A stretch of 64,000 nt of DNA from an uncultured Planctomycetia bacterium (GTDB lineage: Bacteria > Planctomycetota > Phycisphaerae > Phycisphaerales > SM1A02), in contig CALFOZ010000103.1 in the NCBI GenBank assembly GCA_937919205.1, forward strand, positions 4,127-68,126, read 5' to 3'. Under the pieces are notes generated by a model. It ran no database searches and was not told the origin of the DNA. It worked only from the letters and a program-made list of their open reading frames with translations. The position numbers and the translations under genes were made by a program. Numbering within the stretch: the first letter of the stretch is position 1; the number at the start of each line of letters is the position of its first letter. Positions 25,003 to 39,760 of this stretch are shown here, in pieces.

Positions 25003-25070
25003 GGGCGCATCTTCCCCGCAAGCGACCTTGCCGTCGAGCAGTTTTTCAACGCTTTCGCTACATTTACTCC

Positions 25071-26048: not shown

Positions 26049-26377
26049 AATATGGCGCGGACGCGGTTTGCAAAAAATCTTATTTGACGGCGCAAAATGC
26101 TGTCACATTCCAATTTGTTCTGCGTTTGTTAGGTGGGACCGAAGAAAAAAGGCAGTGTTTCCTGGAATGCGGCAAATCAAGGGTAGAGTTCATACAAGAA
26201 TTCAACCCTAAAAATTACCGAACAAAGGGTTGACTAGCCGATTGGAATCGGATACCTAATAGATACCAAACAAATGATTTGGCATTGGAGCCAAGTCAAA
26301 TGCAAGGAAAAATCAAAGTTCGGACAGTTTCAAGCCTGTTTCTATAAGAAACAACAACCAAGGAAGGTTACTTACAA

Positions 26378-27724
26378 ATGGTCGCAGCAACAGATTCAAA
26401 AGGTGGCGTAGTCAACGGAGCAGTCAATGCAAACAAGGATGTCAAAGGTGATACGCGGGCAACTGCGACAGCGTCAGCTTCTGGAAATTCCAGAATTTCA
26501 TTAGGAAGTTCAACTTCCGCAGTGGCAACGGGCGCTGTGTCAGCTACAAATCAATCAGTGGCGAAACCAGCGACGGCGTCTGGCGCAACAAACGCAACTG
26601 AAAGGTCAAACATGTCCAAACCAGAAATTAAATCTGACATCAAGTTAGACAAGGCGCCAACCGCCAAGGAAACCGCCAAGGAATCCGTGGAGCAAAAAGC
26701 GAAGTTGAAAGCCATCGAGCAAGCCATGGGACAAATTGAAAAAGCCTACGGCAAGGGCAGCATCATGCGTCTTGATGGCGATTTACCGGAACCAATTCAA
26801 GGCATTTCCACTGGCGCGCTCAGTTTGGATCTTGCGCTGGGTGGTCGTGGTTTGCCGCGTGGACGAGTTGTAGAAATCTTTGGTCCAGAATCAAGTGGTA
26901 AAACAACGTTGGCGCTTACGGCAATCGCCAACACGCAACGCGAAGGCGGCGTGGCCGCGTTCATCGACGCGGAGCATGCGCTCGATCCATCTTGGGCCAA
27001 GCGTTTGGGCGTGAACCTGGATGAAATTTTAGTTTCGCAACCAGACACTGGCGAGCAAGCGCTTGAAATTTGCGAGATGTTGGTTCGATCCAACGCCGTC
27101 AACATGGTCGTCATCGATTCGGTGGCCGCGTTAATTCCGCGCGCTGAAATCGAAGGTGAAATGGGCGACAGCCACATGGGTTTGCAGGCGCGCCTTATGA
27201 GCCAAGCGTTGCGCAAGTTGACCGGCGCCATCGCCAAGAGCGATTGCATTGTGGTGTTCATCAATCAGTTGCGTGAGAAGATTGGCGTTATGTTTGGTAG
27301 CCCGGAAACAACCACCGGCGGTCGCGCGCTCAAGTTCTACGCCACGGTGCGCATTGATATTCGCCGCATTGGCCAGATCAAAGAGGGCGACCGAATTGTG
27401 GGCAATCGCATCAAGACCAAGGTGGTCAAGAATAAGATCGCGCCGCCGTTCCGCGAGGCGGAATTTGACATCATGTTTGATGAGGGTATTTCCACATCGG
27501 GCGATGTCCTGGACATGGCCACCGCGGATGAAGTGGTGGATAAGAGCGGTTCCTGGTTTAGCTACGGAGCCACTCGACTCGGTCAAGGCCGTGAAGGCGC
27601 CAAGTTGTTCCTGCGCCAGAATCCGGCGTTGCTCGATGAGATTCGAAAGGCCGTCATGGCGAAGCGTTTGGCTAATCCAAATGGAATTCCAACCAAGCCC
27701 AAGGATGAGTCCGACGACGAGTAA
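26378..27724 (+). CDS. recA: Recombinase RecA with a low-complexity N-terminal extension of about 105 aa
   Basis: The core begins at [26 protein letters not shown]. Walker A is [12 protein letters not shown]. Alternative start is ATG 26612 (MSKPEIK). Confidence 0.93.
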
Positions 27725-27812
27725 ATTCTGAAAGAAAGATTCCCGTGTTGGGGGGTTCTCGACGGAGCCGCTCAGCTCGGAAAAATCCTTTCAACACCAA
27801 GAAGTTCAAAGA

Positions 27813-27840
27813 AGTCCGACATGGGTCGGACTTTTTATTT
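27813..27840. terminator. Bidirectional hairpin terminator between convergent recA and the gabD-like gene
   Basis: agtccgac-atgg-gtcggact (8-bp stem) followed by ttttattttt on the plus strand. It abuts the stop codon of the minus-strand dehydrogenase gene. Confidence 0.7.
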
Positions 27841-29277
27841 TTCCAGCGAGCGAAGCGCCAGATATTGCGTTGTGACATATTCCATCAAGCCCCAAGCGCC
27901 GCCTTCGCGTCCATATCCGCTGTATTTCACGCCGCCAAAGGGCGCGCGCGCGTTGCTGGGCGCGGCTTCATTCACCCCAATCACGCCGCACTGCAATTGT
28001 TGCGCCACGCCACGCGCGGATGCGTCGTTGCCGCCAAACACATAGCCCGCCAATCCAAACGGACTCGAATTTGCAATCTCAATGGCTTGGATTTCAGATG
28101 CCACGCTCATAATTGGAATCACCGGTCCAAATGTTTCTTCCTCAAAGCACAGCATGCTTGGATCGCAATTGGCAATCACGGTGGGCTCAAAGAAACGGTC
28201 GGGGCGGTCGGGGATTTCCTTTGTGCGACCGCCGCAGATCAACTTTGCGCCACGCGCCAGCGCGTCGGCAACATGCGCGCGAACTTTTTCAACGGCCGCA
28301 TCGTGAATCAGCGGACCTATTTGGCATCCCGCGTCTAGGCCTGGCGCAATCTTCAGTTGCGCGGCCGCCACGGCCACGCGCGCGGCAAATTCGCTGGCGA
28401 TGGATTCATGCACAAGAAATCTATTGGGGCAAATGCAAGTTTGCCCAGCGTTACGAAACTTGGATTGCACCGCGCCTTTGACAGCCAATTCAATATCGGC
28501 GTCTTGTAGAACAATAAATGCGGCGTGTCCTCCAAGCTCCATGGAACAGCGGACAATTTCCGGCGCGCACTGGCGCAAAAGCAAGCGGCCGGTCTCCGTG
28601 CTTCCGGTGAAACTGAGTTTGCGCACGCGGCCATCCATAAGCCAAGTTGTTGCGATTGCCTTCGCGTCGCCGATCAACACATGTAAACACTGTGGCGGCA
28701 GACCGCACTCCAAAAGAATTTCCGCAAGCGCGAAAGCCGAAAGCGGAGTCTCTTGCGCAGGCTTGGCAAGTTGCGCACACCCCGCAGCAAGGGCAGGCGC
28801 AACCTTGCGCGCCAACATAGCCAGCGGAAAATTCCACGGGGTGATTGCCGCGCACACGCCAACGGCCCGGTGCCTGACAACGCCGCGCAAGCCTGGTCGT
28901 TCCAGGGAAACTTCCATCTCGTTCAGCGCCTGAATTTCTTGCGCGGCGCTGGAAAAATAATCCGCGCTGTACTGCACCTCGCTGGCAGCCTCCGCAAGCG
29001 GCTTGCCACACTCTTGCGTGATGATGCGTGCCAGCGAATCTTTTCTGGCAACCACCATCGCGGCGGTTGCCCGCAACACATCGGCGCGTTGCGTGATTGG
29101 CGTGGCTTCCCACTCGGGTTGAAATTCAAATGCGCAGTTCAGCGCGCTCAACGCCTCGCTTGCGCCACACATGGGCACGCGCGCGATCACTTCGCCGCTG
29201 GCTGGATCGGCCACATCAATCGCGCCGCCAGAACCAATATCCGTCCATCGACCAGCGATCAAATTGCGTGTTTGCAT
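27835..29277 (-). CDS. gabD: Succinate-semialdehyde dehydrogenase-like NAD(P)+ aldehyde dehydrogenase
   Basis: ALDH motifs are present: FTGSTETGR, ELGGHAAFIV, a catalytic Cys in GQTCICPNR, and EETFGPV. The start is taken at MQTRNLIAGRW; the track start is 29295. Confidence 0.85.
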   Translation of the reverse strand: MQTRNLIAGRWTDIGSGGAIDVADPASGEVIARVPMCGASEALSALNCAFEFQPEWEATPITQRADVLRATAAMVVARKDSLARIITQECGKPLAEAASEVQYSADYFSSAAQEIQALNEMEVSLERPGLRGVVRHRAVGVCAAITPWNFPLAMLARKVAPALAAGCAQLAKPAQETPLSAFALAEILLECGLPPQCLHVLIGDAKAIATTWLMDGRVRKLSFTGSTETGRLLLRQCAPEIVRCSMELGGHAAFIVLQDADIELAVKGAVQSKFRNAGQTCICPNRFLVHESIASEFAARVAVAAAQLKIAPGLDAGCQIGPLIHDAAVEKVRAHVADALARGAKLICGGRTKEIPDRPDRFFEPTVIANCDPSMLCFEEETFGPVIPIMSVASEIQAIEIANSSPFGLAGYVFGGNDASARGVAQQLQCGVIGVNEAAPSNARAPFGGVKYSGYGREGGAWGLMEYVTTQYLALRSLEK

Positions 29278-29313
29278 TGTCCCCAAAGCGTACACTTATG
29301 TAAGAGGTAAACC

Positions 29314-29586
29314 ATGGCCAAAGCAATTGTTGATCCCAATGAACTGCGCCGATTCGCCGCCGACTTGAAGAAATTTAACAACGACGTGCAAACCCAAATG
29401 ACGCGCGTTGGCGCATCGCTTGGTGGCTTGCAACAAACTTGGCGCGACCAAGAGCAGGTGAAATTCTCAGAGGAGTTTGAGCAAACCATGCGCGCGTTGC
29501 AGAAATTTGTCAAAGCCTGCGACACGCATATCCCATTCCTGGTCCGCAAGGCCGAACGCATCGAGGAGTATCTCAACCAGCGTTGA
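29314..29586 (+). CDS. WXG100 (ESAT-6/EsxA-like) family protein, W-R-D variant
   Basis: 90 aa, with an AAGAGG Shine-Dalgarno 7 nt upstream. The predicted helix-turn-helix has a central W43. The segment IVDPNELRRFAADL...LQQTWRDQEQVKFSEEFEQTMRAL parallels the canonical WXG100 pattern (I-x-V-x-PEEL...W-x-G-x-A-x-x-x-F-x-x-x-F), with G replaced by D. Confidence 0.7.
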   Translation: MAKAIVDPNELRRFAADLKKFNNDVQTQMTRVGASLGGLQQTWRDQEQVKFSEEFEQTMRALQKFVKACDTHIPFLVRKAERIEEYLNQR

Positions 29587-29610
29587 TGCGTTTGCAGGCG
29601 CAACCACTTT

Positions 29611-30240
29611 ATGGATCCCCAGCAAGTCAATATTCAATCAGTCGAGGTATTGGAGCGAACGCGCGCCGCATTTATTCGTTGCCGCGAGGAGGTGGGGCTT
29701 GCCGTCGCCGAAGCGGACAGCGAAGTTGACCGACTCGTGATGTGGCTTCAAAACGATCGCATGATGTATTGGCGCGTCCGCATCAACCGTCTTCGCGAAG
29801 ACTTGAACAACGCCCGCAGTGCGCTGTTTCGCAAAGAGACGGTGACCAGTAGCAAGGATTCCAAGCCCAGCACCGTGGATGAGCGCAAGACATTGGCGCG
29901 GGTGAAGGCAATGCTGGAGGACGCGGAGCGGCGGGCCGTGCGGACAAAATCATGGGCGCAACATTTTCCGCGCGAGCAGGCGTTGTTCAAGGGCGCCACC
30001 TCAATGATCGCATCCATGCATGAGCGTGAATTACCCGCGGCAATCTTGGCGCTGGGAAGAATGGTTGTGGCCATCCAACGCTATGTTCGCGATGAGCCCC
30101 TGGATGTCTCCAAGATGTTCGAAGTGGAACTTGCCGCGGCCACCCAAGCCACAAATATGAAACGCGCGGTTGACAGCGCGCCACCGGATGGTTCCATTCA
30201 AGATTCATCCGCTCAAAGCAAGCAGGAGCCACTGCCATGA
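29611..30240 (+). CDS. Hypothetical helical protein (209 aa) of the WXG100/FtsK-like operon
   Basis: It lies 24 nt after the WXG100 gene and in the same reading frame. Its stop overlaps the next start as ATGA. The protein is charged and helix-prone, with a polar disordered tail. I recognise no family motif. Confidence 0.6.
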   Translation: MDPQQVNIQSVEVLERTRAAFIRCREEVGLAVAEADSEVDRLVMWLQNDRMMYWRVRINRLREDLNNARSALFRKETVTSSKDSKPSTVDERKTLARVKAMLEDAERRAVRTKSWAQHFPREQALFKGATSMIASMHERELPAAILALGRMVVAIQRYVRDEPLDVSKMFEVELAAATQATNMKRAVDSAPPDGSIQDSSAQSKQEPLP

Positions 30241-30467
30241 GTGTTGAAGGTGGTCGACAACGTCTGTACGGCGCGCTGAAGGAATTCCGCATGAAATGGG
30301 CTGAATCCGAGAGCCAATGGAAAGATCCCGCCTCCCAAATGCTGGCCAAAAAGTATGTTCAGCCACTTGAAGATGGCGGCAAGGCCGCGATTCAAGCCAT
30401 GGAATCCATGCGCGATTTGATCGCTCGAATTCGTAGCGAGTGCAATGATCCAAATTCCATTCAGTGA
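30237..30467 (+). CDS. Small (76 aa) helical protein with a W-K-D motif; possible WXG100-like partner
   Basis: Translationally coupled to the upstream gene (ATGA). ESQWKDPASQMLAKKYVQPL resembles the W-x-G/D turn and second helix of WXG100 proteins, but helix 1 is short. Confidence 0.5.
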   Translation: MSVEGGRQRLYGALKEFRMKWAESESQWKDPASQMLAKKYVQPLEDGGKAAIQAMESMRDLIARIRSECNDPNSIQ

Positions 30468-30512
30468 ACGCATTTGCAATCCCAACCCATTCCACTTGTA
30501 CGATAGATCGCA

Positions 30513-33500
30513 GTGACCAACTTGCCCACGGACTTTGAAAATCTTGATCCACTTGCGCGGTGCGCGTTGCGCTGGAAAGTTTTAAGTCAGGCTTGTCAAG
30601 CGCATGAGCAGTCGTTGGACTCCGCCGTGAAAGAAATCCTCGCTATGCGGCAGGCGGAATTATCTCGCCATCAACTTCGGATGAATCAGATCGATGCGCA
30701 CTATCAGACTTTGTCACAAGAATGCGAACAGGCGCACGAACAGCAGTTCAACGCCACCACCACCAAGGCGGCATTGGATGAGAAGAACATCAAAGATCAC
30801 GCGCGCGTGCAGGCCGAGGAGATTCAAAATAAATTCAAGGATGATCTGCATGCCAACAAACAACATTTGGAGGAGGCCATTTGGCTGGCGGAAAGTGTAT
30901 TAGAGACTGGCGAGGCCGCGCCCAAATTGGAATTTGAGGAGACGCGCGGCCGCCTGGTTCACCTTCAAGCCAATCTGGAGCAGACCATCTCCGCGGCGGT
31001 GTTTCAGCTGAAGCGCTATCGCCAATCGGAGCCGCCCATGCAACCCATGAACGCCAATCTTGTGCCTCGATCTTGCGAGGGAACATTGGCCACGCAGGTG
31101 GCTCTGGCCATGGAGGCGTTGGAGCGATTTAAAAAGTTGAAACTATCTGGCTTGTTTCGTGGACCCATATTGTTGGTGCCCGTGATTTTAATCACCGCAA
31201 CATTCGCTGGCGCCGCCGCGCTCGCGGGCGGGCGCGGCATGGTCTTGGCGGTGGCCGCCAGCGTTGGAATATTCTCCAGCGCCGCGGGCATTTGCGTGTT
31301 GTGGTTCATGGCGCGCAAGCAAGTGCGCCAGGCGTGGACTTCTATCGCCAACGCGCGGCAAGTGGGCGCGGAGGCGTTTGAGATCGCCATGAAATTTGCC
31401 CATGATCAGCGTGTTAGCGCCGCCGCGGCCGCGGTGAACACGCGTGATCGCGAAGTGCAATCTGCCAAGGAGAAATGGACTCCCATTATTGAAAGCCTGC
31501 AGGCCACAAGCCGCGCGTTGGTGGATCAGATTAAACAGGATCGCAAGTTGAAGTTAGACGCTGTAGAGAAAAATAAAATGAAAGTGCTTGATCAAGCGGG
31601 CAAGTCCGTGGCGGTCACGCGCAGTAAGGCGCTATTGGAAATGGAGAGCCAGCGCGATCAGGAAAAAAAACAAGCCGCCCAGAATCGTTTGCAGTGCGAC
31701 GCTCTGGAGCAGTCGCACGCCATGGTCCGCCATAACGCGTGGCAGAGTGCCCGCGACGAATTTTCCACATGGGCCAACGCCATTGAGCAAAGCGCGAATG
31801 TGTTGATGCCCGAGTGGCAGTCAGTCATGGATGCGGCCGCGCCCATGCAAAGTTCAGAAGCCTTGGCATTTGGATGGATCAAACTTGATGTATCCACCAT
31901 CGCCAACGGCGTTCCAAACGAGCCGCAGTGTCAGTGGTCAGATTCCAACCAAGCCGCGCCGGTGTGGAATATTCCCGCGTTGCGTCCGCTTCCAAATCTT
32001 CCATCGCTGTTGGTGGAGGCGCCCTTGCAAGGCCGTGAAAAAGCCCTCGAACTTCTTCAAACAGCCACGCTTCGATTGCTCACACAAATTCCGCCAGGCA
32101 AGGTTCGTTTCTATTTCTTTGATCCCGTCGGCCTTGGGCAAAGTTTCGCGGGCTTCATGCACCTTGCCGATGAAATGGAGTCGCTTGTAAGCGAGCGCAT
32201 CTGGAGCGAGCCGCGCCACATTGAGCAAAAGTTAACGGATCTCACGGAATATGTTGAGACCGTGATTCAGAAATTTCTACGCGATGAATTCGCCACCATC
32301 GCGCAATTTAATGAACAAGCTGGGGAGTTGGCGGAACCACTGCGTGTGATTGTGTTCGCGGATTTTCCAGCGGGGCTGACCGAGGCGGGTAGCAAACGTT
32401 TCGCAAGTTTGCTTCAATCGGGCGCCCGTTGCGGCGTGCACTTTGTGTTGTTGCGTGATCCAACCCAGCCACTTCCTGGATTAATCAAGGAGGAAGAATT
32501 GCTACAGCGATGCGCGCGCGTGCGCTGGAGTGGGGATCGATTTATTGTTGACGCGCCTGGATTGCTCGATGTTCCGTTTACGCCCGAGGCCATGCCCACT
32601 GCGAACATGTTGCAAACCATGTTGAAAAAAATTGGGCGCCAAGCCAAGTCCAGCTCCAAGGTGGAGGTTCCATTCCAAGCCATCGAGCCCAAGCTTGAGC
32701 AACGCTGGAGCAGTTCCAGCGCCAAGATTTTGCGCGTGCCTGTGGGGCGTAGTGGCGCCAACAAATTGCAGTCCATTGAAATTGGCGAGGGAACCCGCCA
32801 GCACGTGTTGCTTGCCGGCAAAACTGGCTCGGGTAAAAGCACGTTGCTTCACGCGCTGATCACCAACGTCGCGCTTTGGTATTCCCCCGACGAAGTTGAG
32901 TTGTGGTTGATCGATTTCAAGAAGGGCGTTGAGTTTAAGGCGTACGCGACCCACGGACTTCCCCATGCGCGCGCGGTTGCGGTGGAGAGCGACCGCGAAT
33001 TTGGTCTGAGCGTGTTGCAGGGACTCGACGCCGAATTGAAGCGCCGCGGTGATTTGTTTCGCTTGGCCGGCGTGCAAGATTTGGCCGCGTGGCGATTGCT
33101 AGGCAAGAAAGAATCCATGCCGCGCACGCTCTTGATCGTGGACGAGTTTCAAGAACTGTTCGTGGAAGAGGACAAGGTCGCGCAGGATTCATCGCTGTTG
33201 CTGGATCGATTGGTGCGCCAAGGCCGCGCGTTCGGCATGCATGTGATCCTGGGTTCGCAAACTTTGGGTGGAACGTACGCGCTTCCGCGCACCACCATGG
33301 GACAAATGGGAATTCGCATCGCCCTGCAATGCAACGAGGCCGACGCCGCCATGATCTTGTCCGACGACAACACCGCGGCGCGGTTGCTGTCGCGTCCGGG
33401 CGAGGCGATCTACAACGACGCCGGCGGTTTGATCGAGGGCAACAGTCCATTTCAAGTTGTCTGGCTCACGGATGCACAGCGTGACGAACGTGTTCGAGCG

Positions 33501-34394
33501 CTCGCCGAGTCCGCGCGCGCCAAGGGCATTGCCGATCGCAAGATGATTGTCTTTGACGGAACCGCGGCCGCTCGCATTGAACGTTGTGAACCTCTGCAAG
33601 AGTTGATCGCCAATCCGCCCACGACAGGCGTGCCTGCCCTGCAAATATTTGTCGGTGATCCAGTCGCCATCCGCAACGTCAGCGTCATCACTCTGCGGCG
33701 CCAATCGGGCGCAAACATCATTGTGATTGGTCAGCGCGAGGAGGTTGCCGCGGGTCTGAGCGTGGCGACTCTTGTGAGTTTCGCCGCGGTCACGCGCAAG
33801 ATTTCTGGCCGCGTGGTTTTGCTCGACGGCACCACGCCGGATTCGCTTACGGCTGGAGTGTTGCAGGCCACTATTGAAAAGCTCAAACTCAACGCCGAAG
33901 TTCCAAATTATCGCGACAGTGACGCGGCGGTTCTGCAGTTGGGCGAGGAAGTGGCGCGGCGCATCGCCGAAGGCCGGCAAGATCAACCTCCAATATTGCT
34001 CATGATCCATGGCCTGCAACGCTTTCGCACGTTGCGCAAAGACGAGGACGATTTCTCCATGTCGAGCGATGGCCCACCGAAACCTGACAAGGTGCTGGGC
34101 GCGATCCTTCGCGATGGTCCTGGCGTTGGCGTGCATGTATTCGCATGGGCTGACACGGCCCCAAGTTTACAGCGTTGCATTGATCGCAACGCGCTTCGTG
34201 AATTTGATTTCCGCGTGCTCATGCAGATGAGCGCCAATGATTCCAGCTATTTAATGGACACACCAACAGCCTCGCGCTTGGGAGCTGACCGCGCGTTGAT
34301 CTTCAGCGAGGAAAAAGGCGCGACCGAACGCTTTCGTCCTTTTGAAATCGCCAGCCAACAGGTGCTTGAAAAATTGTTCACTTCACATTCTTAA
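30513..34394 (+). CDS. Membrane-anchored FtsK/SpoIIIE-family ATPase (EssC/EccC-like), 1293 aa
   Basis: GTG start just after an in-frame TAG. TM hairpin at about aa 217-266 (nt 31161-31310). Canonical Walker A GKTGSGKST at aa 769-777 (nt 32817-32843) and Walker B LLIVDEF with D877-E878 (nt 33141-33146). FtsK/SpoIIIE-type context is present (WLIDFKKGVEF, GRAFGMHVILGSQ). Two additional FtsK-like domains have degenerate P-loops. Confidence 0.9.
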   Translation: MTNLPTDFENLDPLARCALRWKVLSQACQAHEQSLDSAVKEILAMRQAELSRHQLRMNQIDAHYQTLSQECEQAHEQQFNATTTKAALDEKNIKDHARVQAEEIQNKFKDDLHANKQHLEEAIWLAESVLETGEAAPKLEFEETRGRLVHLQANLEQTISAAVFQLKRYRQSEPPMQPMNANLVPRSCEGTLATQVALAMEALERFKKLKLSGLFRGPILLVPVILITATFAGAAALAGGRGMVLAVAASVGIFSSAAGICVLWFMARKQVRQAWTSIANARQVGAEAFEIAMKFAHDQRVSAAAAAVNTRDREVQSAKEKWTPIIESLQATSRALVDQIKQDRKLKLDAVEKNKMKVLDQAGKSVAVTRSKALLEMESQRDQEKKQAAQNRLQCDALEQSHAMVRHNAWQSARDEFSTWANAIEQSANVLMPEWQSVMDAAAPMQSSEALAFGWIKLDVSTIANGVPNEPQCQWSDSNQAAPVWNIPALRPLPNLPSLLVEAPLQGREKALELLQTATLRLLTQIPPGKVRFYFFDPVGLGQSFAGFMHLADEMESLVSERIWSEPRHIEQKLTDLTEYVETVIQKFLRDEFATIAQFNEQAGELAEPLRVIVFADFPAGLTEAGSKRFASLLQSGARCGVHFVLLRDPTQPLPGLIKEEELLQRCARVRWSGDRFIVDAPGLLDVPFTPEAMPTANMLQTMLKKIGRQAKSSSKVEVPFQAIEPKLEQRWSSSSAKILRVPVGRSGANKLQSIEIGEGTRQHVLLAGKTGSGKSTLLHALITNVALWYSPDEVELWLIDFKKGVEFKAYATHGLPHARAVAVESDREFGLSVLQGLDAELKRRGDLFRLAGVQDLAAWRLLGKKESMPRTLLIVDEFQELFVEEDKVAQDSSLLLDRLVRQGRAFGMHVILGSQTLGGTYALPRTTMGQMGIRIALQCNEADAAMILSDDNTAARLLSRPGEAIYNDAGGLIEGNSPFQVVWLTDAQRDERVRALAESARAKGIADRKMIVFDGTAAARIERCEPLQELIANPPTTGVPALQIFVGDPVAIRNVSVITLRRQSGANIIVIGQREEVAAGLSVATLVSFAAVTRKISGRVVLLDGTTPDSLTAGVLQATIEKLKLNAEVPNYRDSDAAVLQLGEEVARRIAEGRQDQPPILLMIHGLQRFRTLRKDEDDFSMSSDGPPKPDKVLGAILRDGPGVGVHVFAWADTAPSLQRCIDRNALREFDFRVLMQMSANDSSYLMDTPTASRLGADRALIFSEEKGATERFRPFEIASQQVLEKLFTSHS

Positions 34395-35592
34395 GCGCGG
34401 CGCCGGTGCGCGCGCGAAGTTGGCGCACACAATCACACACAATGGTGGCGGCCCGAACAATGTCCTCGCGCGTTGTGAATCTGGACAAACTAAATCGCAC
34501 GCTTGCATGGGCCAACACAGGCGCAATTCCCATGGCCAGCAACACGGGCGACGGATCAAGAGAGCCCGAACTACACGCCGCGCCCGCGCTGGCGCAAACG
34601 CCCGCATTGGAAAGCGCCAACACAATGGCCTCGGCCTCCAAATGCGCGAACGCGATATTGCTTGTGTTCCAAACTCTGGTTGCTCCAATCCCATTGATCA
34701 CCGCGTCTGGAATTGAAGTTTGAATGAGCCGCTCAAACTCATCGCGCAGTGTGTTGGGCGCGACACCGGCGGACTGCTTCAGCCATTGCCGCGCCGCGAG
34801 CGCGGCCACGCCAAAGCCAACAACGCCCGGAACATTTTCCGTGCCCGCGCGTCGATCACGCTCTTGCGGACCGCCCACAAGTTGCGGGGTGATTGGCGCG
34901 CCTCGGCGCGCGAACAACGCGCCCACGCCTTTGGGGCCATGCAATTTATGCGCGGTGAATGTGGCAAAATCAACCATAGCGTCAGCCACATCAAAGGGTT
35001 GGCGGCCCACACTTTGCGTGGCGTCGGTGTGAAACAACACGCCGCTCTCGCGGCATATTTCGCCCACTTCGCGCACGCACAGGGCAACCCCGGTCTCATT
35101 GTTCACCGACATCAGCGACACCAAGGCAATTTCATGCGCGTGTTTTTTTACCAGCAAGCGTAAGCGCTCCAAATGTAATTCGCCGTTGGTTGCATGCTCA
35201 ACCCAAATCACTTGACACACTCCATCGCTTTCAAGTTGCTCCGCCAAATTACGCACGGCAGAATGCTCCAATTTGCTTGTGACAATCAAGCGCCGCTTGG
35301 CATGTGCTTGCACAACGCCACGTAGCGCCAGAGATGCAGACTCCGTTCCACTGGAGCAAAAAATAATTTCGCGCGCGCCGGCTCCAACAAGTTGCGCCAC
35401 CTGTTCGCGGGCGTCTTCAACGTGGGCGCGGGCCGCTTGCCCAAATCGATGCACACTGCTGGGATTGCCCCAATTGTTCAATAGCGATTCACCCATGACA
35501 TGCGCAACTTCTGGAAGCGGCATGGTGGTGGCGTTGTTATCCAAGTAAATCACATCGCAAGTGTAGGGGGGCGTGCGCCAATCACCAATCAT
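34378..35592 (-). CDS. Cysteine desulfurase (NifS/IscS class V aminotransferase)
   Basis: IYLDNNATT at the N-terminus, PLP-lysine context (FTAHKLHGPKGVGALF) and active-site Cys loop (SAGAACSSG). Its 3' end overlaps the ATPase gene by 17 nt. Confidence 0.9.
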   Translation of the reverse strand: MIGDWRTPPYTCDVIYLDNNATTMPLPEVAHVMGESLLNNWGNPSSVHRFGQAARAHVEDAREQVAQLVGAGAREIIFCSSGTESASLALRGVVQAHAKRRLIVTSKLEHSAVRNLAEQLESDGVCQVIWVEHATNGELHLERLRLLVKKHAHEIALVSLMSVNNETGVALCVREVGEICRESGVLFHTDATQSVGRQPFDVADAMVDFATFTAHKLHGPKGVGALFARRGAPITPQLVGGPQERDRRAGTENVPGVVGFGVAALAARQWLKQSAGVAPNTLRDEFERLIQTSIPDAVINGIGATRVWNTSNIAFAHLEAEAIVLALSNAGVCASAGAACSSGSLDPSPVLLAMGIAPVLAHASVRFSLSRFTTREDIVRAATIVCDCVRQLRARTGAALKNVK

Positions 35593-35665
35593 TCAACAGG
35601 TGGCCGCGCGGCAAAAAAAATATCAATGCATATAAAAAATCCGACCACTTGGATCGGACTTTCAA

Positions 35666-35749
35666 TGCGGATGAGAGGAATCGAACCTCCATGGGTGTGA
35701 CCCCACAAGAACCTGAATCTTGCGCGTCTGCCAATTTCGCCACATCCGC
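35666..35749 (-). tRNA. tRNA-Leu (anticodon CAG)
   Basis: Hand-folded cloverleaf: acceptor GCGGATG/CATCCGC, anticodon stem CAAGA/TCTTG with loop TTCAGGT, long variable arm, T-loop TTCGATT. 84 nt, and CCA is not encoded. A hairpin plus T-run follows at about 35634-35662. Confidence 0.9.
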
Positions 35750-35800
35750 AAGGGCGTGGAGTGTACTTTGCCGCATTGCGCCTTGCATTTTCACTGGACA

Positions 35801-35833
35801 TAAAAAAACGGGGTGGCCGTATGACCACCCCGT
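35801..35833 (-). terminator. Rho-independent terminator after rpoD
   Basis: On the minus strand: acggggtgg-tcatacgg-ccaccccgt (9-bp GC-rich stem) followed by ttttttta. Confidence 0.85.
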
Positions 35834-35854
35834 TTCAATTCAAACATTTCTCAA

Positions 35855-37798
35855 TCAATCCTCGGCGTCATCAGTGATATCCGTTCCAATGTCAAGCACT
35901 TCGCTATCGCCAGCGTCATCCGCGTCATCTTGTGAAACCAAGAAACTGGACAAGCGCTGGCTTCGCACTGGATGCTGCAACTTCTTCAACGCCTTGCTTT
36001 CAACTTGGCGCACGCGTTCGCGGGTCACTTTGAAGATTCGACCGACTTCCTCAAGCGTATAGGTGTAGCCATCGCCAATGCCGTAGCGCAATTTCAAAAT
36101 CTCGCGCTCGCGGTAGGTGAGCGTCTTCAATACATCATTGATGCGTTGACGAAGCAACTCGTTGCTGGCGGCTTCGGACGGGCTTGACTGGCGCTCGTCC
36201 TCGATGAAGTCGCCGAAGTGGCTGTCTTCGCTCTCGCCCACTGGCCGATCAAGCGAAATTGGATGGCGGCTGATCTTCATCACGCGGCGAACTTCTTCGG
36301 CGGGCATCTTGGCTTTCGCCGCGATCTCCTCGCCGGTTGGTTCACGACCCAACTCCTGAAGCAAATGCTTCTGGATGTTGCGCAACTTGCTCATGGTTTC
36401 AATCATGTGCACAGGCACACGAATTGTTCGCGCGTGATCAGGGATGGCTCGCGTGATCGCTTGGCGAATCCACCATGTCGCATAGGTGCTGAACTTGTAT
36501 CCGCGTTGATACTCGTACTTATCCACGGCGCGCATCAGGCCCGTGTTGCCTTCTTGAATAATGTCCAGGAATGGCAGTCCGCGGTTGCGATATTTCTTGG
36601 CGATGCTGACCACCAAGCGAAGATTTCCGCCAGAGAGATCGCGCTTGGCTTGTTCGTACTCGCCAAACACACGCATAATGGCTTTCATACGCGCTTCAAG
36701 TTCCTCGGGGTATTCAAACACAATGGATCGAAGACCAACCAACTCCTCGCGCATGACAATTTGATCCTCGGGATCAAATCGCTCTGGAAATTTTTCCGCC
36801 TTGCTCAGTTGGCGCTTCAGTTCCAACATTTTACGGTGAATGGATTGCAATCGACGCATCAATGGCTGAATACGGCCGGTACGCAGGCAACACTCCTCAA
36901 GCAGAGTGGCCACTTTACGGCGGCGCAGGCGCAGTTCTTCCTTGATCACCAATTTACGTTCAGCTGAAACTTCGGAGTCCTCCAATTGATTCCATTGATG
37001 CTCGTTCATCTCGATCAACTTCACGATGGTTTCAACATTGAATGGAATGCGCGTGGCAATCTTGCCCTTGGCATCTTCTTCAGCTGTGGAAATACGCATG
37101 GTCCGATCAAATGGCAACTTGCCGTCGCGAACTTGCTTAAGAGTTTCCGTGGCCAAGAGCGCCACGTAATCACTCTCAAGGGATTTGCGACGGAAGATCA
37201 TGCGGGTGGTTTCAATTTTCTTAGCCAAGCGAATTTCTTGTTCGCGGGTTAAAAGCGGAATTGTTCCCATCTGCGTCAAGTACATGCGAATTGGATCATC
37301 GATTCGCTTGCTACCTTGTTCGGCCAAAGCCTGGGCCACGATCGCCATGGCTTCCTCATCGTCCAAAATTTCGTCATCTAGATCCGCTGGTTCGGGACCA
37401 GCTTTGGTAGAAGGAATTTCAACAACATCATCCTTCACTTGCTTTGGAAGTTTGGGCTGGGTTCCGGGAGTCAAGATTGGCGCTGGAGGTGGACCTTGAA
37501 TCGCCGCTGGTACCGAGCACGCTTCTTTACGATGCTTTGGATTGTCGCGATGAAACTTCAAGTTGGTCTGCAGGGGAGCATCCATTGGAGTGAGCTTGTT
37601 TCGCTGTACTTCAATCTCATCCATCATGTCGATGCCATTCTCACTCAGAAGAATGAAGAGCTCGTCAATTCGATCCGCGTTGACAAACTCATCTGGCAAG
37701 CAGGTGTTGAGTTCCTCGTAGCTAATCCACTTGCGTTGACGACCTGTTTCTACAAGGCGGCGAAGAGTGGCTTTCAGATCTTTAATGGCAAGACTCAC
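35855..37798 (-). CDS. rpoD: Primary sigma factor RpoD (sigma-70)
   Basis: Region 2 ([41 protein letters not shown]), region 3, and region 4 ([28 protein letters not shown]). 647 aa. Confidence 0.97.
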
Positions 37799-37834
37799 GG
37801 TTCAACTCCAATTCTTTAAAGGGGACAAAAACAT

Positions 37835-39760
37835 TCAAAAGTGATCCGCAGACGTTGGTGTTGCGGTTTCAGTTCGGGGTATATTTCGTTTAAATCGAGC
37901 AATTGCGGAGGGGTTATGACCCCCTTGGCGTAGTTGCTCCAAGCGCGCATTCGCGTCCATGGGATTCATGACAGTTGGTGTGTCCGAAGTGGCGATTGCG
38001 TCGTGCAGAAATTTGTCAAAATCAGCGGCCGCATTTCGCACCGCTTCTGACGGATCGATGTGTTCGTTGCGCTGACTTCCAATATGAAACAACTCGCCGC
38101 ACAGCGCTTTGAGCGACGGCTCTTGGCACTCGGCTTGAACATCTTGAACATGAAATGAATTTCCAGATTCAAGTCGCATGACAAGCAGGCTCCATATTTG
38201 ACGAAGATCGGTTCGTTGGAAGTGTTCAGGTGAAAAAGCTTCAGAAATGGGCAATAACCCATCTTTGCCAACCGCCACGCGCACCTGGGCGGAGTTTGGA
38301 TCGGCCATAATTGCCGCCAATAAATTTTCCTCAGCCATTCGGCGGGCTTTTTGACGCGGGCTTTTTGCTGGCTCTTGCACAACAGGAGCGGGAGTTGGTT
38401 GGTTGATTTTTAATTCAACCCGCGCTTGCGGCATTGATTGTTCAAGGGTTCGCACTGGAACGCCGGTTAATTTTGACAGGGCGGTGAGCACAAAACTTTT
38501 TCGGATTGGCTCAATGCCACGGAAGCCAAGCTCGCCAAGTTTGCGCAACAACTCTTGCAGGCGTTGTTGTTTTCCAGACATGCCTTCAACGGATTCCAAG
38601 TTGGTTTTAAAGCGACGCACCATCCATGAAAGCGCTTCCTCGCCAACTTCAAGCGCGGCGTTGAAATCATTCAAGCCATTTGGTCGTTGCAACAATTCGT
38701 CGGCGTCAAGACCATCGGGCAGGGTGGCAATGCGAACATCAACAGGAACCGCCAAGAAAGTTTCCACGGCGCGGTCGGCGGCGCGTTCACCAGCGTTGTC
38801 GGGATCAAACACCACGGTGATGCGCTCGGCCATTCTTTGCAGTGCCTTGGCGTGATCTTTTGTGAGCGCGGTGCCCAGCGTGGCAATCACGTTGGTCACG
38901 CCCGCTTGATGCAAAGCCACGGCATCCACATAGCCTTCAACCACGATCGCGTGCTTGGAATCAATAATGGATCGCCGCGCGCGGTGAAGTCCGTACAGCG
39001 TGCGCCCCTTGGAAAACAGCGGGGAATCAGGGCTATTGAGGTACTTTGGCTCGTCGTTTGGATCAAGCCGGCGCGCGCCAAATGCGATCACATTTCCCAA
39101 CTCGTCATGAATAGGAAACAGCAGTCGATTGCGGAAGCCGTCAATCGGACCGCGTTGACCGCTACGAATCAATCCAAGCGCCTCGAAACTTTCGCGCGCA
39201 ACCTTGTCGGCGGAATTTGCGCTGTGTTGAATCAACTTCTCAATGTGACGCGCGAGATGGTCCCAACCTTCGGGCGCAACGCCTAGTTGAAAATCATCGC
39301 GGGTTTGCGCGTTGAGCATGCGCTCATCCAAGTGCGCGCGCGCCGTCGCGCCAAGTTTTTCATCTTGCAAACAGCGCTGATAAAATTTGGCCGCCGACGC
39401 CATGGCTTTGCGCAAAGACTCTTTGCTTGTGGCTGGATCCTTTGGACCCTCGTCGCGCATCGAGCGCAATTCAATTCCGCATCGCTGTCCCAAATATTTC
39501 AACGCCTCGCGGAATTCCATCTTGTGGAAATTCATCACAAAGTCGATCGCGTTTCCAGCGGCCCCGCAGGCGAAACAATTATAAAAAGCGTTGCCCTTGT
39601 GCGTTACAACCGCCATGCTTGGCGACTTGTCTTCATGGAATGGACAAAGCCCCACGTGCTCTCGGCCGCGAGGCTTAAGAGAAACGTGTTCGCCAACAAG
39701 GGACACAAGGTCAGTTGCGTCCAAAATGCGATCGCGATCGCTTTGTTGCGATAAAACCAT
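37835..39760 (-). CDS. dnaG: DNA primase DnaG
   Basis: Zinc finger (GLCPFHEDKSPSMAV...FYNCFACGAAGNAIDF), RNA polymerase core, and TOPRIM (VVEGYVDAVAL). Confidence 0.95.
   Translation of the reverse strand: MVLSQQSDRDRILDATDLVSLVGEHVSLKPRGREHVGLCPFHEDKSPSMAVVTHKGNAFYNCFACGAAGNAIDFVMNFHKMEFREALKYLGQRCGIELRSMRDEGPKDPATSKESLRKAMASAAKFYQRCLQDEKLGATARAHLDERMLNAQTRDDFQLGVAPEGWDHLARHIEKLIQHSANSADKVARESFEALGLIRSGQRGPIDGFRNRLLFPIHDELGNVIAFGARRLDPNDEPKYLNSPDSPLFSKGRTLYGLHRARRSIIDSKHAIVVEGYVDAVALHQAGVTNVIATLGTALTKDHAKALQRMAERITVVFDPDNAGERAADRAVETFLAVPVDVRIATLPDGLDADELLQRPNGLNDFNAALEVGEEALSWMVRRFKTNLESVEGMSGKQQRLQELLRKLGELGFRGIEPIRKSFVLTALSKLTGVPVRTLEQSMPQARVELKINQPTPAPVVQEPAKSPRQKARRMAEENLLAAIMADPNSAQVRVAVGKDGLLPISEAFSPEHFQRTDLRQIWSLLVMRLESGNSFHVQDVQAECQEPSLKALCGELFHIGSQRNEHIDPSEAVRNAAADFDKFLHDAIATSDTPTVMNPMDANARLEQLRQGGHNPSAIARFKRNIPRTETATPTSADHF

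What the first reader, a model, noticed from the sequence alone, without database searches (positions are those of the whole stretch)
30513..34394. Atypical domain architecture of the FtsK/SpoIIIE ATPase
The protein reads as follows:
- aa 1-210: a heptad-rich, Q/E/K/A-rich segment with no FHA domain
- aa ~217-266: two adjacent TM helices, so both flanks lie on the same side of the membrane
- aa ~275-440: a second coiled-coil-like stretch
- aa ~495-665: an FtsK-like domain with ruined P-loop motifs (LQGREKAL where G-x-x-GSGKS/T is expected, VFADF in place of the D-E Walker B)
- aa ~735-985: one canonical domain (GKTGSGKST and LLIVDEF)
- aa ~1040-1270: a last FtsK-like domain that is again degenerate (IVIGQREEVAAG and LLMIHGL)

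Classical EssC/EccC proteins carry three consecutive P-loop domains after a degenerate linker (DUF) domain. This protein appears to have only one competent ATPase site and one fewer domain.
Basis: seen in the sequence. Interest (0 to 1): 0.7.

Follow-up and report, generated by a model that had tools for sequence, protein, structure and literature searches.

The report
Planctomycete one-motor type VII-like ATPase
This gene encodes a membrane-anchored secretion-type ATPase, found across the Planctomycetota next to small WXG100 proteins, in which only the middle of three motor-like domains is intact; a 2012 paper noted this layout in a table footnote, but I found no experimental study of it.

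Summary
ORF 30513-34394 (+) encodes 1293 aa: a long N-terminal helix, a two-helix TM hairpin, a second long helix, then three FtsK/RecA-like domains. Only the middle domain (D1) has Walker A (GKTGSGKST) and Walker B (LLIVDEF), and both are invariant in 85 homologues. The flanking domains D0 and DL lack the catalytic Lys/Ser and Asp-Glu in all 85, yet keep their own conserved motifs. They are ancient pseudo-ATPase domains, not recent decay. Profile comparison links DL to D1 (96%) and D0 to DL (95%). Foldseek aligns all three domains collinearly to EccC D1-D2-D3.

The gene ends a four-gene cassette (WXG100, ~210 aa, ~76-aa WXG100 paralogue, ATPase). The cassette is present in about 60 of 68 Planctomycetota loci that hold enough upstream sequence.

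The best reading is a minimal type VII-like export ATPase with one domain fewer than EccC/EssC. Zhang et al. 2012 (PMC3482391, Table 1 footnote 6) already noted this architecture in planctomycetes.

Possibly new: the two long helices are length-locked (for example 168 residues in 61 of 78 sequences) at only 13-15% identity. They have 3.65-residue periodicity and a paired insertion, which suggests a ~24 nm antiparallel stalk.

The parts
29314..29586 (+). WXG100-family protein (90 aa), first gene of the cassette. Its central motif is W-R-D-Q-E rather than W-x-G, and its C-terminal tail ..iEeYLxQR is conserved.
   Evidence: Pfam WXG100 8e-12. NCBIfam TIGR03930 8.6e-10, below cut-off. Found upstream of the ATPase in 62 loci, with the consensus given.
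29611..30240 (+). Family-specific protein of 209 aa with no predicted TM segment and no known relatives. Its function is unknown; adaptor, chaperone or substrate are guesses.
   Evidence: Conserved in 67 loci between the two WXG genes. No Pfam, NCBIfam or PDB relatives above noise. Its 3' end overlaps the next gene by 4 nt.
30237..30467 (+). 76-aa WXG100 paralogue (W-x-D motif), a likely partner of the 90-aa protein.
   Evidence: Its family profile also hits the 90-aa WXG100 ORF, at E 3.9e-9 in the window and 1e-4 to 1e-15 in the loci. Weak Pfam WXG100 hit on the orthologue in L005.
30513..34394 (+). Whole ATPase gene, 1293 aa, GTG start.
   Evidence: Full-length homologues at 37-99% identity.
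30549..31013 (+). N-terminal long helix, aa 13-167, cytoplasmic, with 3.64-residue hydrophobic periodicity and a length-locked span.
   Evidence: AF2 predicts a single helix with pLDDT >90. R20->W124 is 105 residues in 66 of 76 sequences and W124->R168 is 45 in 74 of 78, at 15% median identity. Periodicity.
31161..31310 (+). TM hairpin: TM1 at aa ~217-240 and TM2 at aa ~243-266, joined by a 2-4 residue turn (GGRG).
   Evidence: Kyte-Doolittle windows up to 2.4-2.7 in all 11 homologues. AF2 helices 211-238 and 243 onward.
31311..31799 (+). Post-membrane stalk helix, aa 267-429, continuous with TM2, with 3.66-residue periodicity and a length-locked span.
   Evidence: AF2 predicts one helix 243-429 with pLDDT >90. 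R268->W435 is 168 residues in 61 of 78 sequences and A318->W410 is 93 in 78 of 79, at 13% median identity. A +7 insertion here always comes with a +7/+8 insertion in the N-helix.
32004..32654 (+). D0, aa ~498-714: a degenerate FtsK-like pseudo-ATPase domain in the position of the EccC DUF domain. G-R508-x-x-A replaces the P-loop and A-D617-F-P replaces Walker B.
   Evidence: hhalign D0~DL 95.2%, E 2.6e-8. Model SSE order and pLDDT 75-90. R508 in 82 of 85 sequences, D/N617 in 82 of 85, P619 in 85 of 85. 1566 cluster representatives at E<=1e-10.
32727..33542 (+). D1, aa ~739-1010: the canonical FtsK/SpoIIIE ATPase domain. Walker A is at nt 32817-32843 (GKTGSGKST) and Walker B at nt 33129-33149 (LLIVDEF).
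   Evidence: Pfam PF01580 8e-32. Best PDB sequence match is EccC D1. K775, S776, D877, E878 and Q916 are invariant in 85 of 85.
33627..34382 (+). DL, aa ~1039-1290: the C-terminal degenerate FtsK-like domain. G-Q-x-[DE]-[ED] replaces the P-loop and [YHN]-G-L-Q-R-[FY]-R replaces Walker B.
   Evidence: hhalign DL~D1 96.3%, E 1.7e-9 over 196 columns. Model pLDDT 78-91. Weak profile hits to EssC D2 (E 1e-3) and EccC5 D2. Residue counts.

Best explanation
The protein is the motor of a minimal type VII-like (WXG100) export system that is widespread in Planctomycetota.

Shown:
- The chain is: N-terminal long helix, two-helix TM hairpin, long stalk helix, then three tandem FtsK/RecA-like domains.
- Only the middle domain (D1, the counterpart of EccC/EssC D1) keeps the residues needed to bind and hydrolyse ATP.
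- D0 and DL are conserved pseudo-ATPase domains.
- The gene is the last of a conserved four-gene cassette with two WXG100-type proteins and a ~210-aa protein.

Inferred:
- The protein oligomerises through its RecA-like domains, probably as a hexamer like FtsK and EccC.
- D1 alone supplies the energy.
- D0 acts like the EccC DUF domain, as a non-catalytic assembly or gating module. Its Arg508 and Asp617 are at the positions of the Arg-Asp bridge described for DUF domains.
- DL takes the substrate-docking or regulatory role that D2 and D3 have in EccC/EssC. It would recognise the WXG100 pair, perhaps through the conserved C-terminal tail of the 90-aa protein.
- The N-terminal helix and the stalk helix pack antiparallel into a rigid stalk of fixed length (~24 nm). 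This would put the N-terminus next to D0 and hold the ATPase domains far from the TM hairpins.
- The TM hairpins are the only membrane segments encoded in the cassette and would have to form the inner-membrane conduit.
For: - Architecture and motifs.
- Fold: AF2 model. Foldseek top hits are EccC 4nh0 (E 4.6e-29, 931 columns), EccC 4n1a and EssC 4lya/5fv0, followed by FtsK and TcpA.
- Homology of the degenerate domains: hhalign 96.3% and 95.2%.
- D1 identity: EccC D1 > D2 > D3 by phmmer. Matches EccCa, EssC and EccCb profiles at E 6e-33 to 2e-22.
- Cassette: WXG100 by Pfam. The same four genes occur in four unrelated genomic contexts and in ~60 of ~68 loci with enough upstream sequence. The 76-aa protein is a WXG100 paralogue.
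- Distribution: the best 80 of 494 confirmed genome hits are all Planctomycetota, spanning Planctomycetia and Phycisphaerae and including the isolate Singulisphaera sp. Ch08. 1566 cluster representatives at 50% identity carry D0 at E<=1e-10.
- Stalk: AF2 helices, length invariance, 3.65-residue periodicity in both helices, and co-occurring +7/+8 and +7 insertions.
- DUF precedent: EccC DUF domains are degenerate ATPase folds with an extended alpha-1 helix and an Arg-Asp bridge (PMC11154593).
Against: - No experiment exists for any member, so secretion of the WXG100 proteins is inferred only from homology and gene linkage.
- None of the accessory membrane components of T7SSa (EccB/D/E, MycP) or T7SSb (EssA/EssB/EsaA) is in the cassette or the flanks examined.
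- Planctomycetes are generally described as having an outer membrane (my own knowledge, not tested here), and nothing in the cassette explains how that would be crossed.
- A motor held ~24 nm from the membrane is hard to reconcile with direct threading through a TM pore.
- D0 has no detectable sequence similarity to the pre-D1 (DUF) region of EccC/EssC homologues, and only marginal hits to solved T7SS ATPases (E 0.07-0.5).
- The AF2 model is of moderate quality (pLDDT 68.5, pTM 0.39). The C-terminal part of D1 (aa 942-987) has pLDDT <50.
The paired insertion is probably one ancient event, and unpaired +11 insertions exist.
Confidence: 0.6

Rival explanations
1. The system is a housekeeping cytoplasmic machine rather than a secretion system. 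In this reading the membrane-tethered single-site motor on a ruler-like stalk acts on the WXG100-like helical hairpins and the 210-aa protein inside the cell, for example in membrane or envelope organisation or in cell division in a phylum with unusual cell biology. The WXG100 proteins would be partners, not cargo.
For: - Wide distribution across Planctomycetota, with strong purifying selection (D1 72% median identity).
- The cassette sits in a stable chromosomal context among recA, rpoD and dnaG in the window and in L001, and next to dnaG-rpoD in L088.
- No accessory channel proteins, and almost no periplasmic exposure (a 2-4 residue loop).
- The stalk would hold the motor far from the membrane.
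Against: - Every characterised pairing of WXG100 genes with an EccC/EssC-type ATPase is a secretion system (established knowledge; PMC11154593, PMC3482391).
- D1 is closest to secretion ATPases, not to other FtsK-like clades.
- No positive evidence exists for any intracellular role.
Confidence: 0.17
2. It is a DNA translocase or conjugative coupling protein (FtsK, SpoIIIE, TraB or TcpA-like) that happens to lie next to WXG100 genes.
For: Pfam FtsK_SpoIIIE. PDB sequence hits to FtsK motor domains (E 5e-11) and TcpA (E 1e-6). Foldseek hits to FtsK and TcpA at E ~1e-9. One MAG copy is annotated 'cell division protein FtsK'.
Against: - There is no FtsK gamma (PF09397) or FtsK alpha (PF17854) domain, whereas the true FtsK hits P0022 and P0023 carry both.
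- EccC/EssC score far better than FtsK (E 1e-33 against 5e-11; NCBIfam FtsK E 1.8e-4).
- The tandem triple-domain layout with two dead sites is the T7SS-type layout.
- Linkage to WXG100 is conserved across the phylum.
- No relaxase or other conjugation genes lie nearby.
Confidence: 0.04
3. The degenerate motifs reflect lineage-specific decay of a former EccC/EssC gene, that is, a gene on its way to becoming a pseudogene.
For: Two of the three domains lack catalytic residues.
Against: - The same substitutions, plus domain-specific conserved motifs, are kept in 85 species at 37-99% identity. Examples are R508, P619, G1073-Q1074, R1170 and R1172.
- D0 and DL are 42-46% identical across the phylum.
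- The ORFs are intact and of uniform length.
- 1566 cluster representatives carry D0.
Confidence: 0.02
4. It is a component of an anti-phage defence system. PADLOC models SspH and mads_8 hit the protein.
For: PADLOC SspH E 1.9e-27 and mad8 E 5.4e-23.
Against: - The hits cover only D1 (aa 740-973), the shared FtsK-like P-loop domain.
- No other Ssp or MADS genes are nearby.
- The cassette partners are WXG100 proteins.
- The gene is in the core chromosome, not in a defence island.
Confidence: 0.02

Closest known systems
[quoted passage not shown]
   Same: Three FtsK-like domains with only the middle one intact, an adjacent stand-alone WXG100 gene, and planctomycetes named among the lineages.
   Different: - The footnote gives no sequences, no N-terminal architecture, no cassette composition and no experiments.
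- It calls these 'mobile versions of T7SS'. Here the cassette sits in a syntenic housekeeping context (recA ... rpoD-dnaG), shared by the window and L001 at 67% ATPase identity.
- All of the best 80 genome hits are Planctomycetota. Whether the proteobacterial, cyanobacterial and other versions belong to the same family was not tested.
EccC (T7SSa, Actinobacteria; e.g. T. curvata EccC 4nh0, M. tuberculosis EccC5 7np7)
   Same: - Two N-terminal TM helices, a stalk, a degenerate ATPase-like domain before D1, and a canonical FtsK/SpoIIIE D1.
- Further FtsK-like domain(s) after D1, and WXG100 genes alongside.
- Best sequence and fold matches.
   Different: - One FtsK-like domain follows D1 instead of two, and it has no P-loop at all.
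- There is a ~210-aa helical region before the TM helices.
- The stalk is ~160 residues and length-locked.
- No EccB/D/E or MycP genes are in the cassette.
- NCBIfam scores are far below cut-off (114 against 509 bits).
EssC / YukB (T7SSb, Bacillota; 4lya, 5fv0, 9qks)
   Same: A cytoplasmic N-terminal region, then two TM helices, a DUF-like domain and the ATPase domains. Foldseek E 1e-16 and phmmer E 2e-22. DL's best, though weak, sequence match is EssC D2 (E 1e-3).
   Different: - The N-terminal region is one long helix, not two FHA domains.
- One domain fewer.
- No EssA/EssB/EsaA genes.
- NCBIfam EssC scores 102 against a 778-bit cut-off.
EccC DUF domain (degenerate ATPase; Ceballos-Zuniga et al. 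2024, PMC11154593)
   Same: D0 takes the same position (stalk - D0 - D1), has a RecA/FtsK-like fold without Walker A Lys/Ser or Walker B Glu, has a long helix in place of the P-loop (model helix aa 505-525), and has a conserved Arg at the start of that helix plus Asp/Asn at the end of the Walker B strand.
   Different: No detectable sequence similarity to the pre-D1 regions of EccC/EssC homologues. The Arg-Asp contact itself was not checked in the model.
Intramolecular antiparallel coiled coils of fixed length (chemoreceptor cytoplasmic domains, SMC/Rad50/MukB arms, dynein stalk)
   Same: Two long helices of matched, conserved length and shared periodicity, with paired insertions. These structures are the only Foldseek hits of the N-terminal model, and they are weak (E 2e-4 to 3e-2).
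   Different: Here the two helices are joined through a membrane hairpin rather than a soluble turn. The resemblance is generic for coiled coils and does not indicate homology.

Membership tests
T7SS EccC/EssC-type ATPase (FtsK/SpoIIIE, YukA/YueA clade) | An FtsK/SpoIIIE P-loop domain closest to EccC/EssC D1, with intact Walker A and B | tested here: met
   PF01580 8e-32. EccCa, EssC and EccCb profiles at 6e-33 to 2e-22. 4nh0 D1 is the best match. Motifs invariant in 85 of 85.
T7SS EccC/EssC-type ATPase (FtsK/SpoIIIE, YukA/YueA clade) | Two TM helices N-terminal to the ATPase domains | tested here: met
   Hydropathy in 11 homologues and AF2 helices.
T7SS EccC/EssC-type ATPase (FtsK/SpoIIIE, YukA/YueA clade) | A degenerate ATPase-like DUF domain between the stalk and D1 | tested here: inconclusive
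   D0 is FtsK-like by fold and by profile and is in the right position with DUF-like Arg/Asp residues. It shows no sequence similarity to EccC/EssC pre-D1 regions.
T7SS EccC/EssC-type ATPase (FtsK/SpoIIIE, YukA/YueA clade) | Three consecutive P-loop domains (D1, D2, D3) after the DUF domain | tested here: not met
   Only one domain follows D1, and it lacks a P-loop. ORF lengths are uniform at ~1270-1450 aa.
T7SS EccC/EssC-type ATPase (FtsK/SpoIIIE, YukA/YueA clade) | Genomic linkage to WXG100 genes | tested here: met
T7SS EccC/EssC-type ATPase (FtsK/SpoIIIE, YukA/YueA clade) | Curated NCBIfam equivalog score (EccCa, EccCb, EssC) | tested here: not met
   114 against 509, 79 against 347, and 102 against 778 bits.
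T7SS EccC/EssC-type ATPase (FtsK/SpoIIIE, YukA/YueA clade) | Accessory membrane components (EccB/D/E/MycP, or EssA/EssB/EsaA) in the locus | tested here: not met
   None among the window neighbours or the four independent contexts. Only the four-gene cassette is conserved. The rest of the genome was not searched.
T7SS EccC/EssC-type ATPase (FtsK/SpoIIIE, YukA/YueA clade) | ATP-dependent export of WXG100 substrates | not testable with these tools
   This needs genetics and biochemistry.
Solo-WXG 'distinct YueA-like ATPase' (Zhang et al. 2012 footnote) | Three HerA/FtsK domains | tested here: met
Solo-WXG 'distinct YueA-like ATPase' (Zhang et al. 2012 footnote) | Only the middle domain is active | tested here: met
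   This is motif-level evidence; activity was not measured.
Solo-WXG 'distinct YueA-like ATPase' (Zhang et al. 2012 footnote) | Adjacent stand-alone WXG-domain gene | tested here: met
Solo-WXG 'distinct YueA-like ATPase' (Zhang et al. 2012 footnote) | Mobile (horizontally spreading) version of T7SS | tested here: inconclusive
   Synteny with housekeeping genes is shared by the window and L001. More distant members have different contexts. No mobility genes were seen and no phylogenetic test was done.
FtsK/SpoIIIE DNA translocase | C-terminal gamma (winged-helix, KOPS-binding) domain and FtsK alpha domain | tested here: not met
   No PF09397 or PF17854 hit. NCBIfam FtsK E 1.8e-4, 19 bits against 1566.
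EssC of T7SSb | Two N-terminal FHA domains | tested here: not met
   No FHA hit at E<=1. AF2 shows a single long helix.

The most novel reading that the evidence does not exclude
The Planctomycetota cassette would be a self-sufficient 'minimal' type VII-like machine.

- The ATPase alone would provide the membrane conduit (12 TM helices per hexamer), the single motor site, and two pseudo-ATPase modules.
- Its N-terminal helix and post-membrane helix would form a length-locked, hendecad-type antiparallel coiled coil of ~24 nm. This would act as a molecular ruler or transmission rod between the ATPase ring and the membrane.

I found no description of such a stalk in a T7SS ATPase in the papers and structures I consulted.
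Probability: 0.3. Interest if true: 0.75.

Novelty: new member of a known kind. Interest (0 to 1): 0.48.

Why it matters
Type VII secretion is usually treated as a property of Actinobacteria and Bacillota. How the EccC/EssC motor couples ATP hydrolysis to transport is still debated, as is which parts form the channel.

This family is large and uniform: at least 1,500 clusters at 50% identity. It occurs in a phylum generally described as having two membranes. It keeps only D1 as an active site and travels with just three small soluble proteins. That makes it a natural 'deletion experiment':

- It fits the view that D1 is the only essential engine.
- It suggests that the other RecA-like domains are structural or regulatory.
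- It offers a much simpler system in which to ask what the minimal translocon is.

The length-locked stalk, if real, is a testable structural oddity. The practical limits are that everything here is computational and that the core architectural point was already noted in 2012.

Tried and rejected
- Word-indexed protein searches with the full protein and with the family profile returned only ~13 full-length relatives. This wrongly suggested a rare family. The genome scan and the exhaustive D0 search showed it is large.
- The third word-indexed search, with the D0 profile, returned mostly fragments and added little taxonomy.
- Profile searches of D0 and DL against PDB sequences gave only marginal hits: D0 E 0.07-0.5 and DL E 1e-3. 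Domain orthology to D2 or D3 could not be assigned.
- hhalign of D0 directly against D1 is not significant. The link goes through DL.
- hhalign of D0, DL and D1 against the pre-D1 (DUF) region of eight EccC/EssC-like hits gave nothing. That reference alignment was small and heterogeneous.
- The 209-aa protein has no informative Pfam, NCBIfam or PDB relatives. The MHC and tape-measure hits are noise.
- The apparent three-gene 'split' versions (P0177, P0178) come from two contigs of what look like long-read assemblies. Their ORFs overlap and sum to full length, so I treat them as frameshift artefacts, not a split architecture.
- Literature searches for planctomycete T7SS, EccC, EssC, WXG100 or ESAT-6 found no dedicated study, only the 2012 footnote. 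Sutcliffe 2011 (Antonie van Leeuwenhoek 99:127) may be relevant. It turned up only as a citation in other papers, and I did not try to retrieve it.
- PADLOC hits (SspH, mad8) were rejected because they cover only the shared P-loop domain.
- Several ORFs listed upstream on the + strand (27745-28338, 28400-28933, 28753-29310) lie antisense to a 486-aa ORF at 27835-29295 (-). Its orthologue in L001 carries Pfam Aldedh. I did not count them as genes.

Full report
**1. The observation**

The window has an uninterrupted ORF at 30513-34394 on the + strand (GTG start, 1293 aa).

| Domain | Motif | Residues |
|---|---|---|
| D0 | LQGREKAL | 505-512 |
| D0 | VFADF | 614-618 |
| D1 | GKTGSGKST | 769-777 |
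| D1 | LLIVDEF | 873-879 |
| DL | IVIGQREEVAAG | 1070-1081 |
| DL | LLMIHGL | 1162-1168 |

Pfam finds a single FtsK_SpoIIIE domain (aa 738-917, E 8e-32), no FHA domain, and nothing in the first 480 residues. NCBIfam matches EccCa, EssC and EccCb profiles only over D1 and far below their cut-offs. Sequence search of the PDB likewise matches only aa ~725-980. The order of those matches is EccC D1 > D2 > D3, then FtsK and TcpA. Two hydrophobic segments (aa ~217-240 and ~243-266), separated by a 'GGRG' turn, are present in all 11 aligned homologues.

**2. The flanking globular regions are FtsK-like**

An AlphaFold2 model of aa 440-1293 was built with 14 sequences (pLDDT 68.5). It shows three alpha/beta domains with the same order of strands and helices. 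D0 and DL are the better-predicted parts, with pLDDT about 75-91.

Foldseek against the PDB gives the following top hits:

- The three-domain cytoplasmic fragment of T. curvata EccC (4nh0_A, E 4.6e-29). The alignment has 931 columns, which covers the whole query and the whole target.
- The two-domain EccC and EssC fragments (4n1a, 4lya, 5fv0; E 1e-16 to 1e-19).
- FtsK, TcpA and KaiC.

For a domain-resolved test I took 85 orthologues from a genome scan, cut the alignment into domains, and compared profiles:

| Comparison | hhalign probability | E-value | Columns |
|---|---|---|---|
| DL vs D1 | 96.3% | 1.7e-9 | 196 |
| D0 vs DL | 95.2% | 2.6e-8 | 156 |
| D0 vs D1 | not significant | - | - |

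Both significant alignments are in register. The P-loop strand, the following helix, the Walker B strand and the sensor strand superpose. D0 is therefore linked to D1 only through DL.

**3. The degenerate motifs are conserved, not decaying**

Counts across the 85 sequences are as follows.

- D1 is perfect: G769, G772, G774, K775, S776, D877, E878 and Q916 are each present in 85 of 85.
- D0 has G-R-x-x-A at the P-loop position (R508 in 82 of 85). At the Walker B position it has A-[D/N]-F-P (D in 56, N in 26; P619 in 85 of 85).
- DL has G-Q-x-[D/E]-[E/D] at the P-loop position (G1073 in 83, Q1074 in 74). At the Walker B position it has [Y/H/N]-G-L-Q-R-[F/Y]-R (R1170 in 80, R1172 in 83).
- Neither D0 nor DL has a Walker A Lys-Ser/Thr or a Walker B Asp-Glu in any sequence.

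Median identity to the query is 72% in D1, 46% in D0 and 42% in DL. These are ancient pseudo-ATPase domains under selection.

The D0 pattern resembles what Ceballos-Zuniga et al. 2024 describe for EccC DUF domains (PMC11154593). They report a degenerate ATPase fold, an extended alpha-1 helix and an Arg-Asp bridge. D0 has a conserved Arg at the start of the helix that replaces the P-loop, and an Asp/Asn at the end of the Walker B strand. I could not detect sequence similarity between D0 and the pre-D1 regions of EccC/EssC homologues. The equivalence is therefore positional and structural only.

**4. Gene context**

The real local gene map is as follows.

| Gene | Coordinates | Strand |
|---|---|---|
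| recA | 26378-27724 | + |
| aldehyde dehydrogenase | 27835-29295 | - |
| WXG100 (90 aa) | 29314-29586 | + |
| 209-aa protein | 29611-30240 | + |
| 76-aa protein | 30237-30467 | + |
| ATPase | 30513-34394 | + |
| class-V aminotransferase | 34378-35592 | - |
| rpoD | 35855-37798 | - |
| dnaG | 37835-39760 | - |

The aldehyde dehydrogenase and dnaG labels rest on synteny with the Pfam-annotated orthologues in L001. I did not scan those two window ORFs themselves.

- The four + strand genes from WXG100 to the ATPase recur in the same order in four unrelated genomic contexts (L001, L003, L005, L007).
- They are also found in about 60 of 68 Planctomycetota loci with enough upstream sequence.
- The profile of the 76-aa protein also hits the 90-aa WXG100 ORF, so the two are paralogues.
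- The 209-aa protein has no recognisable relatives.
- No other T7SS membrane component is nearby.

**5. Distribution**

- The genome scan confirmed 494 relatives. The best 80 are all Planctomycetota: Planctomycetaceae, Pirellulales, Gemmatales, Isosphaeraceae (including the isolate Singulisphaera sp. Ch08), Thermoguttaceae, Phycisphaerae, Tepidisphaerales and Sedimentisphaerales.
- The closest is a Planctomycetaceae MAG at 89% identity.
- ORF lengths are uniform at about 1270-1450 aa.
- An exhaustive phmmer search with D0 alone finds 1566 cluster representatives (50% identity) at E<=1e-10. The top 150 nearly all have D0 at residue ~470-580 of a ~1300-aa protein.

**6. The N-terminal 430 residues**

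AF2 (pLDDT 80) predicts these elements:

- one helix at aa 13-167;
- a short helix at aa 185-208;
- TM1 at aa 211-238;
- a single helix at aa 243-429 that comprises TM2 and a ~160-residue stalk.

Sequence identity in these helices is only 13-15%, yet their lengths are almost invariant:

| Span | Length (residues) | Sequences with that length |
|---|---|---|
| R20->W124 | 105 | 66 of 76 |
| W124->R168 | 45 | 74 of 78 |
| A318->W410 | 93 | 78 of 79 |
| R268->W435 | 168 | 61 of 78 |

Both helices show a sharp family-averaged hydrophobic periodicity of 3.64-3.66 residues, with power 44-92 times the median. That is hendecad-like, not the 3.5 expected for heptads.

In 206 sequences, the only heptad-sized insertions are +7/+8 in aa 131-155 and +7 in aa 285-314.

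- They always occur together: six carriers have both, and a seventh is unresolved.
- The two sites lie at comparable distances from the membrane.
- The carriers form a loose, deep clade (57-60% identity in the conserved C-terminal part), so this is probably one ancient event that has been retained.

Foldseek on this model returns only weak hits to antiparallel coiled coils: Rad50, the MukB elbow, the dynein stalk and chemoreceptors.

I infer, but have not shown, that the two helices pair antiparallel into a rigid stalk of ~24 nm. Unpaired +11 insertions exist in three sequences.

**7. Interpretation**

The best-supported reading is a minimal type VII-like export ATPase.

- D1 is the only engine.
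- D0 is a DUF-like structural module.
- DL is a degenerate substrate-docking or regulatory module.

Compared with EccC/EssC (DUF + D1 + D2 + D3; PMC11154593), the protein has one RecA-like domain fewer, and no FHA domains.

The function (WXG100 export) is inferred from homology and gene linkage only. Three things weigh against it: the lack of accessory channel proteins, the near-absence of periplasmic exposure, and the long stalk. These keep open a non-secretory, housekeeping role.

The other rivals are poorly supported:

- A DNA translocase role lacks the gamma and alpha domains.
- Gene decay is contradicted by the conservation data.
- A defence role rests on PADLOC hits that cover only D1.

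**8. Prior knowledge**

I found no further description and no experimental work.

- the phylum-wide four-gene cassette with two WXG paralogues;
- the conserved replacement motifs of D0 and DL;
- the syntenic housekeeping context of this copy, which fits poorly with 'mobile';
- the length-locked, hendecad-periodic pair of helices.

**9. Verdict**

- Novelty is modest. This is a member of a variant already noted but uncharacterised.
- Interest is moderate (0.48). It rests mainly on the prospect of a naturally minimal T7SS-like machine and on the unexplained ruler-like stalk.

Noticed in passing
window 30549-31013 and 31311-31799: The two ~150-160-residue helices flanking the TM hairpin keep almost invariant lengths across the phylum at 13-15% identity. 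They have 3.65-residue (hendecad-like) periodicity and a co-occurring +7/+8 and +7 insertion. This suggests an antiparallel ~24 nm stalk of fixed length. I found no precedent for such a stalk among T7SS ATPases.
   Followed up: partly
window 29314-29586 and 30237-30467: Both small proteins of the cassette are WXG100-type, but their central motif is W-R/K-D rather than W-x-G. The 90-aa protein has a strongly conserved C-terminal tail (..iEeYLxQR) that could be an export or docking signal.
   Followed up: partly
window 29611-30240: A 209-aa protein conserved in 67 loci between the two WXG genes. It has invariant W54 and Y158, no TM segment and no detectable relatives. Its stop overlaps the start of the 76-aa gene by 4 nt, which suggests translational coupling.
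   Followed up: partly
window 26378-27724: The recA ORF carries a ~110-residue Ala/Ser/Thr-rich N-terminal extension before the RecA domain, which starts at aa 111. The orthologue in L001 has the same length (450 aa).
   Followed up: no
window 34378-34394: The 3' end of the ATPase gene overlaps the 3' end of the convergent class-V aminotransferase gene (34378-35592, -) by 17 nt.
   Followed up: no
L088 5339-9320 and L089 5114-9104: In contigs from two assemblies, the ATPase is called as three overlapping ORFs (228+528+578 aa and 296+502+550 aa) that sum to full length. The contig naming suggests long-read assemblies, so these are most likely frameshift errors rather than a real EccCa/EccCb-like split. 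In L088 the cassette again lies next to dnaG-rpoD.
   Followed up: partly
window 27745-29310 (+ strand ORFs): Several + strand ORFs of 177-197 aa lie antisense to the 486-aa ORF at 27835-29295 (-), which corresponds by synteny to the Pfam Aldedh gene in L001. They have no family hits and are probably shadow ORFs, not genes.
   Followed up: partly
window 24990-39760 versus L001: The gene order epimerase - recA - aldehyde dehydrogenase - cassette - aminotransferase - rpoD - dnaG is identical in the window and in a genome whose ATPase is only 67% identical. This indicates long-term chromosomal residence of the cassette in this lineage.
   Followed up: partly
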